From the NCBI RefSeq assembly GCF_988242995.1, contig NZ_OZ547043.1: a DNA stretch of 64,000 nt; one strand, written 5' to 3'. Position 1 is the first letter of the stretch. Each line of letters starts with the position of its first letter. This document shows positions 56,801 through 62,800 of the stretch, piece after piece. The position numbers were made by a program.

Positions 56801-59800
56801 CCAAACCGCGACATCAGCGCCGGTTTCGGTTCATCTTCATTACGAATGATCTCAATCACTTCGTCGATATTGAGAAACGCCACCAGCAAACCTTCGAGGA
56901 TATGCAGGCGCTTGAGGACTTTCTCCAGACGATAGTTCAGTCGGCGGCGCACTGTATCGCGGCGGAACACCAGCCATTCGGAGAGGATTTCCAGCAGGTT
57001 TTTCACCGCCGGACGACCATCCAGACCGATCATATTGAGGTTAATACGATAGCTCTTTTCCAGATCGGTGGTTGCGAAGAGGTGGTTCATCACCTGATCC
57101 ATATCCACGCGGTTGGAACGCGGCACAATCACCAGACGGGTCGGGTTCTCGTGGTCAGATTCATCGCGCAGATCGTCAACCATCGGCAGCTTTTTGTTGC
57201 GCATTTGCGCAGCAATTTGCTCCAGTACGCGCGCACCTGAAACCTGATGCGGCAATGCGCTGATAACCACCGCGCCATCTTCTTTCTTCCAAACCGCGCG
57301 CATACGCACTGAACCACGTCCGTTCTCGTAGATTTTACGGATCTCGGCGCGCGAAGTGATAATTTCCGCTTCAGTCGGATAATCCGGCCCCTGCACGATA
57401 TCCAGCAGCTGGTCGAGCGTGGTTTTCGGCTGGTCGATTAATGCGATTGCCGCCTGAGCCACTTCACGCAGGTTATGCGGTGGAATATCGGTCGCCATGC
57501 CGACGGCAATACCGGTGGTGCCGTTAAGCAAAATGTTTGGCAGACGGGCAGGTAGCATTTTCGGCTCCTGCAAAGTGCCGTCGAAGTTTGGCACCCAGTC
57601 AGCCGTCCCCTGCCCCAGCTCGCTCAATAGCAGCTCGGAATATTTCGACAACCGGGATTCGGTGTAACGCATTGCTGCGAACGATTTCGGATCGTCCGGC
57701 GCGCCCCAGTTCCCCTGACCATCAACCAGCGGATAACGGTAAGAGAACGGCTGCGCCATCAGGACCATCGCTTCATAACAGGCGCTATCGCCGTGCGGAT
57801 GGTATTTACCCAGTACGTCACCGACGGTACGAGCCGATTTTTTAAATTTGGCGCTGGCATTCAGGCCCAGCTCAGACATCGCATACACAATGCGGCGCTG
57901 AACAGGTTTCAGACCATCACCAATAAACGGCAACGCACGGTCCATGATCACGTACATGGAGTAGTTTAAGTAGGCGTTTTCCGTAAATTCATGTAGCGCA
58001 AGGCGCTCTGCCATATCGCTCATTAATTCTGATTCCTCAACTTATTCGCCAGCCTTCAAAGGGGCAATATTGCCGGAGATACTACATTATCTGCCGCGTC
58101 GAGTCACAGGAGATCAGCGTGAATAGCGCCGCCGGACGTGCTCCGACGGCGATAAAGGCATCAATGTGCCTTGATATACAACTCTTTGCTGTAGACATAA
58201 TCCTGGGGATTATGCAGCGGAAAACCGCCAACGTAGGGTTTAAGCAGTTTGATTAACGGCTGATAGTAGATAGGAATCAGCGGTGCCTGTTGGTTGATGA
58301 TCACTTCTGCCTGCTGATACAACGCATTACGCTTTGTCGCATCAGTGATCTGCGTGGCCTGGTTTAGTAAGGCGTCATACTGCGCATTTTTCCAGTGACC
58401 GACGTTTTCTTCACTATCGCTTTTGAGCGTGTTCAGGAAGCTGGAAGCATCATTATACGTCGCATCCCACGACTGCCGCGACAGCATGAAATCACCGGTT
58501 CGTCGGGCATCAAGATAGGTTTTCCACTCCATTGTGCGCAGCGTCACCTGTGCACCCAGCCATTTTTTCCATTCGGAAGACAACGCTATCGCGGTTTTTT
58601 CATGCAGATCGTACTTGTTGTAGAACAGCTCAAAGCGTAGCGGATGAGAGGCGTCGTATCCCGCCTGTTTCAGCAAGGCTTTTGCCATCGCGACACGCTC
58701 ACTCATTGGCTTTTGCAGTTCATCGAACGTCGTCGCGCTAAAGCCTTTTACCTCTGGCGGCGTCAGCGTGGTTGCGGGCGTTCTCAACCCCAGTACCTTT
58801 TGCGCAATAAGCTGTCGATCAACCGTAAGATATAGCGCCCGACGCACCCGCACATCGTTAAATGGCGGTTTCTCAAGGTTAAAGTTGTAATATTCGCTGT
58901 TCAGACGCGGGATAATTCGTAGCTCGCCAGGCAGTGATTTTTCAATGGCAGGAATTTGCTGCGCCGGAACCCAGGTGAGATCGACCTCTCCCGCGCGATA
59001 GCGGTTATAGCCGGTGACCGAATTATCCAGCGCCAGATACTTAACCTGTTGCAATACTGTATGTTGCGCATCGCGGTACTTTGGATTTTTGCGTGCAGTA
59101 ATCTTTTCGTTAACTACCCACTGTTCAAGCACAAAGGCACCGTTGTAAACCATGTTCTCTGGCTTACTCCAGCTATCGCCATGTTTAGCGATGACATGAT
59201 GAGGAACCGGGAACAGCGTCGGCCAGGCGAGCATCGTCGTGAACCAAGGAACCGGCTGCTCAAGCGTAACTTCAAGAGTACGATCATCCGTCGCTTTGAC
59301 ACCCAGCGATGTAACATCTGCTTTACCCGCAACAATAGCCGCGGCATTGTTAATGTGCGCCTGTGCCAGATAGCCAGCAAAAGGGCTTGCCGTTTTCGGG
59401 TCAACCGCGCGCTGCCAGCCGAGGACAAAATCCTCTGCCGTCAGAGGCTGACCGTCTGACCACTGCAAACCGTTACGCAGATGGAAAATATAGCGCTTGC
59501 CGCCGTCCAGTATCTCCCAGCGTTCAGCCTGAGCGGGCTGCACCTGGCCTTCACCGTCCATCCATACCAGACCTTCAAACAGATCCAGCACAATCTGCGC
59601 GGCAGTATTCTCCTCTACCTTTTGCGGGTCGAGCGTGCCTGGGTCGCTATGATTGTTGTAACGAAAAACTTGTTGCGGGGCGAGCGGTGTGTTGGCGGGA
59701 ACGTCAGCAGCGTAGAGAGGAGCCGCACTTACCAGGCTGACCAGCCATAATAAATTTCGCGTATACATGGTATTCCTTACCGGAGAAATTATAAGCCCGA

Positions 59801-62800
59801 CAACAATACGCCTGTGGCATTGTTCGCTCAAACTTATCGCGAGTGATTTGGCTCACACTCCGGTAAAGATTCTTCATCACGCCAACGGCACATAAACATC
59901 TGTTTCCAGTCGCTGCTCTGTCATCCCTTCGGCAAGATTGGTGTAGTGAAACAGAATCGGTGCTTTACGCATTTTCTCGCCGCTTGCAGGTAGCCAGTGG
60001 CGAATGATGCCCCATATCGTGTGTGAAATATCGTCCAGCTCGCCAACATGGCGGGCCACAGCATAACGTCCACCGGTAAGTTCACCATTACTTACGCCAT
60101 AACGATTATCGGGGATCGGTTCGCTAACGCTGCCGCAGATATCAAAGCGAAACGCTTCCGGTGCGGTGGTGGCAGGGTCGTCCCAGGCGACGCCAAAAGT
60201 CTGGCTTTGGTTAACAGGAGAAAGCCCCGTCTCTTTACGCCACATGATAAATTTCGCCACGCTGTAGTTGAGCAACTCAGGGCTACAGCGGTGCGGCAAC
60301 ATCGCCACAGGGATTGATGGGAAATCGATAATATTTACATCCAGTGTCAGGTTTGTCATTTTGCCTCCCTGCGAAATTATTCCCGGGAACGCGTCCCGGG
60401 AGCGGTAACAATTACGGATTTACTTTGCGGATCTGTTTGACGTCAATTTCAACAGAATTCCAGTCTTTATCGACTTCCCCCTGAATCTCAACCGTATCTT
60501 TCGGCGTCACCGTCACGCCGTTCCAGCGTTTGTGGTCGATATCAACATTGATAGTACCGCTGGCATCTTTGAACACGTAGAGATCGTCAGAGATGCGTTC
60601 AACGATATTGCCGCGCAGGGTTACCCAGGTGTCGTCACGCAGGGATTTTGCGCTTTCTACGGTCGTTACGCTGCCGTTCGGCCCCTGGAATCCTCCGGCC
60701 TGACTTTGCGTTGCCGATGGGCCAGAAAAACCGCCCTGCTCTGCTGCCATAACCGGTGCACTGCACAGGGCCATTACTGCGATTACTGCTGCGAATTTTT
60801 TCATGTTTATTACTCCCTTTAATGTCTGTTTCCGAGCATTTAACAAGATAGTCCTTAACAACTTCTTAAGGGAAAAAAATAAAATTTAATGCTGTACAGA
60901 GCGCGTTACAACACGGTTTACTGGCAGCAAATACGGTTATCGCAGGGATGAAAAAATGCGAATTTTACTGATAGAAGATGACATGCTGATTGGCGACGGC
61001 ATCAAAACGGGCCTTAGTAAAATGGGTTTTAGCGTCGACTGGTTTACACAAGGTCGTCAGGGAAAAGAGGCGCTATATAGTGCGCCTTATGATGCGGTGA
61101 TCCTGGATTTAACCTTACCAGGCATGGATGGTCGCGATATTTTGCGCGAATGGCGAGAAAAAGGTCAGCGTGAGCCGGTACTGATCCTGACCGCGCGCGA
61201 TGCGTTAGCGGAACGTGTAGAGGGGCTGCGTCTGGGAGCTGACGATTATCTGTGTAAACCTTTTGCGTTGATAGAAGTCGCCGCCAGGCTGGAAGCTCTG
61301 ATGCGCCGAACCAACGGCCAGGCCAGCAACGAACTGCGCCACGGTAACGTCATGCTCGACCCCGGCAAACGTATCGCCACGCTGGCTGGCGAACCCTTAA
61401 CGCTGAAACCAAAAGAATTTGCCCTGCTGGAATTACTGATGCGTAACGCTGGTCGGGTACTGCCGCGCAAACTGATTGAAGAGAAACTGTATACCTGGGA
61501 CGAAGAGGTCACCAGTAATGCCGTTGAAGTGCATGTGCATCATCTGCGACGCAAACTCGGCAGTGATTTTATTCGTACCGTTCATGGTATTGGCTACACA
61601 TTAGGTGAGAAATGAAATTTACCCAACGTCTTAGTCTGCGAGTCAGGCTGACGCTAATCTTTTTAATTCTGGCCTCAGTGACCTGGCTGCTTTCCAGCTT
61701 TGTCGCCTGGAAACAAACAACGGATAACGTCGATGAGTTGTTCGACACCCAACTGATGCTGTTTGCCAAGCGGTTAAGTACGCTCGATCTCAACGAAATC
61801 AACGCGGCAGATCGCATGGCACAGACGCCAAATAAATTAAAACACGGTCATGTTGATGACGATGCGCTGACCTTTGCCATCTTTACCCACGACGGCAGAA
61901 TGGTCCTTAACGATGGCGATAACGGAGAAGATATTCCCTATAGCTATCAACGGGAAGGTTTCGCTGACGGGCAACTGGTCGGTGAAGACGATCCCTGGCG
62001 TTTTGTCTGGATGACCTCACCTGATGGCAAATATCGCATCGTTGTTGGTCAGGAATGGGAATACCGCGAAGACATGGCGCTGGCGATTGTTGCCGGGCAA
62101 TTGATCCCGTGGCTTGTCGCACTGCCGATTATGTTAATCATCATGATGGTACTACTGGGTCGTGAACTCGCGCCGCTGAACAAACTGGCGCTGGCACTAC
62201 GTATGCGTGACCCTGACTCGGAAAAACCACTAAACGCGACGGGCGTACCCAGCGAAGTGCGTCCACTGGTTGAGTCGTTGAATCAACTGTTCGCCCGCAC
62301 ACATGCGATGATGGTTCGAGAACGACGCTTTACCTCCGACGCAGCTCACGAACTTCGTAGCCCGTTAACGGCGCTGAAAGTGCAAACCGAAGTTGCGCAG
62401 CTCTCTGACGATGATCCGCAGGCGCGGAAAAAAGCGCTGCTTCAATTACATTCCGGAATCGATCGTGCTACTCGTCTGGTTGATCAACTGCTCACGCTAT
62501 CGCGGCTGGACTCACTGGATAACCTTCAGGACGTCGCGGAGATCCCGCTTGAAGATCTCCTGCAATCGTCGGTGATGGATATTTACCACACGGCGCAGCA
62601 GGCGAAAATTGACGTGCGACTGACACTCAATGCCCACGGCATCAAACGCACCGGACAACCGCTGTTGCTAAGTTTGTTGGTACGAAACCTTCTGGATAAC
62701 GCCGTGCGTTACAGTCCACAGGGCAGCGTGGTGGACGTCACGCTGAATGCCGATAGTTTCATCGTGAGGGATAACGGCCCCGGTGTGACGCCAGAGGCAC

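What the first reader, a model, noticed from the sequence alone, without database searches (positions are those of the whole stretch)
59769..59876. mqsR-mqsA toxin-antitoxin pair absent between ygiS and ygiV
Only ~108 bp separate the ygiS start and the ygiV stop. From memory, K-12 carries the mqsRA module in this interval. The short intergenic region contains no ORF, so this strain has an empty site.
Basis: partly seen in the sequence, partly recalled or inferred. Interest (0 to 1): 0.4.

Follow-up and report, generated by a model that had tools for sequence, protein, structure and literature searches.

The report
Unoccupied mqsRA site between ygiS and ygiV
This E. coli-type chromosome lacks the mqsR-mqsA toxin-antitoxin cassette that K-12 carries between ygiS and ygiV; this is the ancestral, never-occupied state, shared by more than half of complete E. 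coli genomes, so it is ordinary.

Summary
Observation confirmed. ygiS starts at 59768 (minus strand) and ygiV stops at 59877, leaving a 108-bp spacer (59769-59876) with no mqsR or mqsA.

K-12 MG1655 has 1030 bp at the same place. The first 101 bp are shared. K-12 then carries a 927-bp, 41% GC cassette where the window has 5 nt (TTCTT). The cassette holds the mqsA terminator, mqsA, mqsR, two MqsA operator palindromes and upstream DNA.

The empty state is ancestral, not a deletion. E. albertii, E. whittamii and a third divergent Escherichia lineage are colinear with the window from parC to ygiW at about 90% identity. They have the same spacer, including the nucleotides K-12 lacks.

Counts in 5,426 complete E. 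coli genomes:
- 2,284 (42%) have the K-12 arrangement.
- 1,754 (32%) have the window's arrangement.
- About 1,264 (23%) lack both mqsRA and ygiS.

mqsRA DNA occurs in 2,298 genomes, always chromosomal, at least 99% identical, and almost always at this locus. Relocation elsewhere is therefore unlikely, though the rest of this genome could not be searched.

Uneven distribution of K-12 toxin-antitoxin modules among E. coli lineages, and their insertion into core intergenic regions, is already published. Low interest.

The parts
59769..59876 (-). ygiV-ygiS intergenic spacer (108 bp). This is the ancestral, unoccupied form of the site that holds mqsRA in K-12. It presumably carries the ygiS promoter and 5' leader.
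   Evidence: Colinear with E. albertii, E. whittamii and a third divergent Escherichia lineage. A contiguous junction is found in 3,018 of 5,426 E. coli genomes.
59870..59874 (.). The 5 nt (TTCTT) that stand where K-12 has its 927-bp mqsRA cassette. Other empty-site E. coli have TTCCC, and outgroups have TTCCCG, TCCCCT or TCCCGT.
   Evidence: blastn of the K-12 spacer against the window stops at 59869. The multiple alignment with the K-12 cassette removed shows a 5-nt gap only in K-12.
58161..59768 (-). ygiS, a periplasmic solute-binding protein (SBP_bac_5), intact at 535 aa.
   Evidence: 99.3% identical to K-12 YgiS. Pfam PF00496. The identical protein is found with the same 108-bp spacer in public assemblies.
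59877..60359 (-). ygiV, a GyrI-like domain regulator of 160 aa. Its stop codon lies 2 nt from the K-12 insertion point.
   Evidence: 98.8% identical to K-12 YgiV. Pfam PF06445.
59858..59869 (-). 5' arm (UCUUUACCGGAG in the minus-strand RNA) of a predicted 12-bp closing stem of the ygiS leader. Its outer end abuts the point where the K-12 cassette is inserted.
   Evidence: Inverted repeat I2 in K-12. RNA fold MFE -39.9 kcal/mol, z = -3.2. No compensatory changes in 8 sequences, so this is a prediction only.
59774..59785 (-). 3' arm (CUCCGGUAAGGA) of the same predicted stem. It overlaps the ygiS Shine-Dalgarno sequence (AAGGA).

Best explanation
The interval is the ancestral ygiV-ygiS intergenic spacer of the genus Escherichia, and it never received the mqsRA cassette. 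In one E. coli lineage (represented by K-12, BL21-type and HB101 laboratory strains, and some O145:H28), a self-contained 927-bp AT-rich module was inserted 2 nt downstream of the ygiV stop codon, replacing about 5 nt. The module comprises promoter and operators, mqsR, mqsA and a terminator. That allele now sits in about 42% of complete E. coli genomes. The window carries the other, older allele. Consequences are inferred, not shown. This chromosome segment encodes no MqsR ribonuclease and no MqsA repressor. ygiS is separated from ygiV only by its own 108-bp leader and promoter region, without the mqsA terminator that insulates the two genes in K-12.
For: Shown:
(1) K-12 gene order is ygiS-mqsA-mqsR-ygiV.
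(2) The breakpoints are exact: 101 shared bp, then 5 nt in the window against 927 bp in K-12, then a shared CA followed by the stop codon.
(3) Cassette GC is 41.1%, against 52-55% for ygiS, ygiV and parC.
(4) E. albertii, E. whittamii and a third lineage align end to end with window parC-ygiW (5,040 bp) at 89-91% identity with 2-14 gaps and no mqsRA. Their spacer contains nucleotides homologous to the window's 5-nt filler, which K-12 lacks.
(5) All 2,298 E. coli genomes with mqsRA have it at 99% identity or more, on the chromosome. 2,284 have both K-12 junctions. The size difference is the same 922 bp in every two-piece hit listed. This fits a single insertion event.
(6) MqsR-family toxins occur on 73 plasmids of many Proteobacteria, so the family is mobile.
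(7) Published view: K-12 chromosomal toxin-antitoxin modules are horizontally acquired cassettes integrated in core intergenic regions and unevenly distributed among phylogroups. This appears in PMC5120126, which cites Ramisetty & Santhosh 2016 and Fiedoruk et al. 2015, and in PMC7167474.
Against: No target-site duplication, terminal inverted repeats or recombinase accompany the K-12 cassette, so the insertion mechanism is unknown. No formal ancestral-state reconstruction on an E. coli phylogeny was done. The rest of the source genome was not available, so a divergent MqsR-family module elsewhere cannot be excluded. The expression consequences for ygiS were not tested.
Confidence: 0.93

Rival explanations
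1. Secondary loss: an ancestor of this strain had the K-12 arrangement and the cassette was later excised precisely.
For: Toxin-antitoxin modules are known to decay and be lost. Neighbouring ygiS is itself deleted in about 23% of genomes, so the locus does undergo deletions.
Against: The window's spacer is colinear base for base with outgroup species at about 10% divergence. It retains 5 nt (TTCTT; TTCCC in other E. coli) homologous to the outgroup sequence and absent from the K-12 allele. A deletion of the cassette could not recreate them. There are no cassette remnants. Replacement of an occupied allele by an empty allele through homologous recombination cannot be distinguished from never having had it, but the allele itself is still the ancestral one.
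Confidence: 0.04
2. mqsRA, or a divergent MqsR/MqsA-family module, is present elsewhere in this genome, so the strain is not mqsRA-free.
For: MqsR-family toxins at 57-68% identity occur on plasmids of Enterobacterales and other Proteobacteria. One 354-kb E. coli plasmid carries a 99% identical copy.
Against: Nothing is found in the 64-kb window. Across 5,426 complete genomes, the K-12-type mqsRA is on the chromosome in every case and at the ygiS-ygiV locus in 2,284 of 2,298. Listed exceptions are IS-interrupted copies at the same locus (H31, H116). There are no phage copies.
Confidence: 0.05
3. Assembly artefact: the cassette was collapsed or dropped during assembly.
For: None specific.
Against: The same contiguous junction occurs in 3,018 complete genomes. 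An independent metagenome scaffold is 100% identical to the window over 5,040 bp spanning the junction.
Confidence: 0.01

Closest known systems
E. coli K-12 mqsRA locus (b3022 mqsR, b3021 mqsA) between ygiV and ygiS
   Same: The flanking genes, their orientation, 101 bp of the spacer next to ygiS, and the ygiV stop codon are the same (99% and 98% DNA identity over the flanks).
   Different: The window lacks the whole 927-bp module: mqsA terminator, mqsA, mqsR, two ACCTAAAAGGT operators, and about 200 bp upstream. It has 5 nt there instead.
Empty ygiV-ygiS allele of other E. coli (e.g. O157:H7 Xuzhou21, O25b:H4-ST131, MS7163, CD306) and of E. albertii and E. whittamii
   Same: Same architecture and the same 108-110 bp spacer. 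1,754 of 5,426 complete E. coli genomes have ygiS-spacer-ygiV contiguous, like the window.
   Different: Only point differences. The window has TTCTT where most empty E. coli alleles sampled have TTCCC. The best complete-genome match over 20 kb is 99.3%.
Other chromosomal type II toxin-antitoxin presence/absence polymorphisms in E. coli (e.g. ccdO157, relBE, yefM-yoeB), described as cassettes inserted in core intergenic regions
   Same: A small autonomous module present in some lineages and absent, with intact flanks, in others. This is the published pattern, as cited in PMC5120126 and PMC7167474.
   Different: PMC5120126 states that the minimal transferring unit usually lacks a terminator. 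The mqsRA cassette brings its own terminator. That paper's table notes this, and it is visible in the sequence.
ygiS-deleted allele (parC-ygiV adjacent) of E. coli such as DG342-2 and KSC207
   Same: Also lacks mqsRA, and keeps the same spacer and filler nucleotides.
   Different: That allele has additionally lost all but the first ~22 bp of ygiS. The window's ygiS is intact.

Membership tests
MqsR/MqsA type II toxin-antitoxin module | An mqsR ORF (Pfam PF15723 MqsR_toxin) | tested here: not met
   K-12 MqsR hits PF15723. tblastn of it against the whole window gives best E = 1.5. The two short ORFs over the spacer have no Pfam hit.
MqsR/MqsA type II toxin-antitoxin module | An mqsA ORF (Pfam PF15731 MqsA_antitoxin: zinc ribbon plus HTH) immediately downstream of mqsR | tested here: not met
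   tblastn of K-12 MqsA against the window gives best E = 2.1.
MqsR/MqsA type II toxin-antitoxin module | MqsA operator palindromes ACCT(N2-4)AGGT in the promoter | tested here: not met
   There are two copies in the K-12 cassette (family D1). None is in the window's spacer. The single window match, at 63682, is the chance expectation.
Ancestral (unoccupied) ygiV-ygiS allele | ygiV stop and ygiS start joined by an uninterrupted spacer of about 108 bp | tested here: met
   The same arrangement is found in 1,754 complete genomes.
Ancestral (unoccupied) ygiV-ygiS allele | Spacer colinear with outgroup species, including nucleotides at the insertion point that the occupied allele lacks | tested here: met
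   Alignments with E. albertii, E. whittamii and L004. parC-ygiW is colinear at 89-91% identity.
Ancestral (unoccupied) ygiV-ygiS allele | No remnant of the cassette (scar, partial genes, terminator) | tested here: met
   blastn of the K-12 1030-bp spacer against the window matches only bases 1-101.
mqsRA-free genome (whole strain) | No MqsR/MqsA-family gene anywhere in the chromosome or plasmids | not testable with these tools
   Only 64 kb of the genome is available. The indirect evidence is that mqsRA has a single chromosomal locus in 2,284 of 2,298 carriers.

The most novel reading that the evidence does not exclude
The 108-bp spacer may be more than a passive gap. It could be a structured ygiS leader whose 12-bp closing stem hides the ygiS Shine-Dalgarno sequence. 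In the ancestral allele it could be transcribed from ygiV as well. The mqsRA cassette landed exactly at the outer edge of that stem, and its terminator then uncoupled ygiS from ygiV. On this reading, empty-site and occupied strains would regulate the YgiS deoxycholate-binding protein differently, independently of MqsR activity.
Probability: 0.12. Interest if true: 0.3.

Novelty: already known. Interest (0 to 1): 0.08.

Why it matters
It matters little beyond correct annotation. It shows that this strain belongs to the majority of E. coli in which MqsR/MqsA-dependent phenotypes described in K-12 cannot operate from this locus. These include biofilm and persistence effects, control of GhoT, and claimed ygiS mRNA cleavage during bile stress. 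The population counts (42% occupied, 32% empty with ygiS, about 23% empty without ygiS) are a reminder that K-12 is not the typical state here. They also give a clean natural control for the disputed polar effects of mqsRA deletions on ygiS (PMC6918082).

Tried and rejected
- The first MAFFT pairwise alignment misplaced the right flank. Breakpoints were recomputed by direct comparison.
- One search used the wrong locus record because of a file-parsing error. Its output is void and was replaced.
- Cassette ends were searched for terminal inverted or direct repeats that would indicate transposition or site-specific insertion. None was convincing.
- Rfam on the spacer gave only a sub-threshold snoRNA chance hit (16.5 bits against a gathering score of 45).
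- The covariation test of the predicted leader structure on 8 Escherichia sequences found 0 compensatory pairs and a covariation term of -0.11. The structure remains a prediction.
- The promoter consensus scan found no sigma-70-like site in the spacer at its threshold, so the ygiS promoter position is not established here.
- The phage collection has no MqsR homologue.
- The primary papers on distribution (Fiedoruk 2015; Ramisetty & Santhosh 2016) are not held. Their content is cited only as described by PMC5120126 and PMC7167474.
- The exact source strain was not identified. The best complete-genome match is 99.3% over 20 kb. A metagenome scaffold is 100% identical over 5 kb.

Full report
**What is there.** On the minus strand the window carries parC (55765-58023), ygiS (58161-59768), ygiV (59877-60359) and ygiW. 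These are followed by qseB and qseC on the plus strand and ygiZ on the minus strand. The proteins are 98.8-100% identical to the annotated K-12 proteins. The ygiS ATG is at 59768..59766 and the ygiV TGA at 59879..59877. Two short mechanical ORFs overlap it. They have no Pfam match and no similarity to MqsR or MqsA.

**Comparison with K-12.** The K-12 spacer is 1030 bp.
- Its first 101 bp next to ygiS match window 59769-59869 with one mismatch.
- The last 2 nt before the ygiV stop (CA) are also shared.
- Between these, K-12 has 927 bp where the window has TTCTT (59870-59874).

The 927 bp form a complete unit. It contains a hairpin terminator directly after mqsA, then mqsA, mqsR, two ACCTAAAAGGT palindromes (the MqsA operators), and about 200 bp further upstream. 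Its GC content is 41%, against 52-55% for the neighbouring genes. No terminal repeats or target duplication were found.

**Empty because never filled.** A scan of species-representative genomes with YgiV returned five non-coli Escherichia loci. E. albertii, E. whittamii and a third divergent lineage (labelled E. coli SCPM-O-B-8794) align with the window from parC to ygiW. The alignment covers 5,040 bp at 89.1-90.8% identity with only 2-14 gapped positions, and there is no mqsRA. Their ygiV-ygiS spacers are colinear with the window's. At the K-12 insertion point they carry TTCCCG, TCCCCT or TCCCGT, which are homologous to the window's TTCTT and to the TTCCC of other empty-site E. coli. The K-12 allele lacks these nucleotides. 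A deletion of the cassette could not restore them, so the window has the ancestral allele and K-12 the derived one. Two further Escherichia lineages (L003, L005) have a decayed ygiS and also no mqsRA.

**How common.** Counts are from 5,426 complete E. coli genomes.

| Feature | Genomes |
|---|---|
| mqsRA DNA present (all ≥99% identical, all chromosomal) | 2,298 |
| Both K-12 junctions present | 2,284 |
| Unoccupied junction contiguous | 3,018 |
| Unoccupied junction with ygiS intact, as in the window | 1,754 |
| Unoccupied junction with ygiS deleted down to its first ~22 bp (by subtraction) | about 1,264 |

Empty-site strains seen in the listings include O157:H7 (Xuzhou21), O25b:H4-ST131 and urinary isolates. 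Occupied ones include K-12 derivatives, HB101, NEBExpress and an O145:H28. Because mqsRA has essentially one locus in the species, an empty site predicts an mqsRA-free genome. This could not be verified for the unseen remainder of this genome. Within the 64 kb there is nothing. MqsR-family toxins at 57-68% identity are on 73 plasmids of diverse Proteobacteria and on no phage record, so the family is mobile.

**Literature.** PMC5120126 describes the K-12 endoribonuclease toxin-antitoxin modules as horizontally transferred units integrated in intergenic regions of the core genome. It tabulates ygiV-204 bp-mqsR-mqsA-132 bp-ygiS, with a terminator after mqsA and a putative ygiS promoter. PMC7167474 states that no type II toxin-antitoxin system is shared by four reference strains of different phylogroups, and cites Fiedoruk et al. 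2015 on uneven distribution. A PCR survey found mqsRA in 42 of 88 urinary isolates (PMC11059956). An adherent-invasive strain was reported to lack it (PMC7232551). The polymorphism is therefore already known.

**Function and inference.** It is shown that no MqsR/MqsA is encoded here. The rest is inferred. MqsR-dependent mRNA cleavage and MqsA autoregulation do not operate from this locus. ygiS lies behind ygiV with only its own leader between them, whereas in K-12 the mqsA terminator intervenes. The spacer RNA is predicted to fold stably (-39.9 kcal/mol, z = -3.2). A 12-bp stem pairs 59858-59869 with 59774-59785, and the latter overlaps the ygiS ribosome-binding site. The K-12 cassette abuts the outer end of this stem. 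There is no covariation support and no Rfam family, so this remains a side hypothesis.

**Verdict.** The feature is the ancestral allele, common in the species, of a documented toxin-antitoxin presence/absence polymorphism. It is already known and of low interest.

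Noticed in passing
window 59774-59785 and 59858-59869 (minus-strand RNA): A 12-bp inverted repeat brackets almost the whole ygiV-ygiS spacer. 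It is predicted to close a three-way RNA structure that pairs with the ygiS Shine-Dalgarno sequence (MFE -39.9, z -3.2). It is conserved in Escherichia but has no compensatory changes and no Rfam match. The K-12 mqsRA cassette sits exactly at its outer edge.
   Followed up: partly
window 13684-15109: About 1.4 kb absent from K-12, containing an IS4-family transposase ORF (13750-15096, NCBIfam NF033592). It is inserted in the yghO region.
   Followed up: partly
window 15287-23673: An 8.4-kb gene cluster missing from K-12, where K-12 has an IS5 copy (insH9) instead. It encodes a fatty acyl-AMP ligase, an SDR reductase, a serine-palmitoyltransferase-like enzyme, LptF/LptG paralogues and a YtfJ-family protein. 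It looks like a lipid-synthesis and export island lost from K-12 by an IS5-associated deletion.
   Followed up: partly
L002 (NZ_OZ392464.1) 5586-6130; L008 (KSC207): A third common allele of the locus, in about 23% of complete E. coli genomes. ygiS is deleted down to its first ~22 bp, so parC and ygiV are neighbours, and mqsRA is also absent. L002 additionally lacks ygiZ. Almost no genomes combine mqsRA with a missing ygiS (2,298 against 2,284).
   Followed up: partly
window 42867/42868 and 31929-31990: Small indels relative to K-12. 233 bp of the K-12 yghA-exbD intergenic region (3150584-3150816) are absent. A 62-bp segment replaces 115 bp after yghU.
   Followed up: no
window 63398-64000: The ygiZ-mdaB intergenic region is only 93% identical to K-12, against 97-98% for the rest of the window. 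Some E. coli (L002) lack ygiZ altogether.
   Followed up: no
H31 (NZ_CP093317.1), H116 (NZ_CP025913.1): In a few E. coli genomes the mqsR gene is interrupted by an IS1 element, so the toxin is inactivated while mqsA is kept.
   Followed up: no
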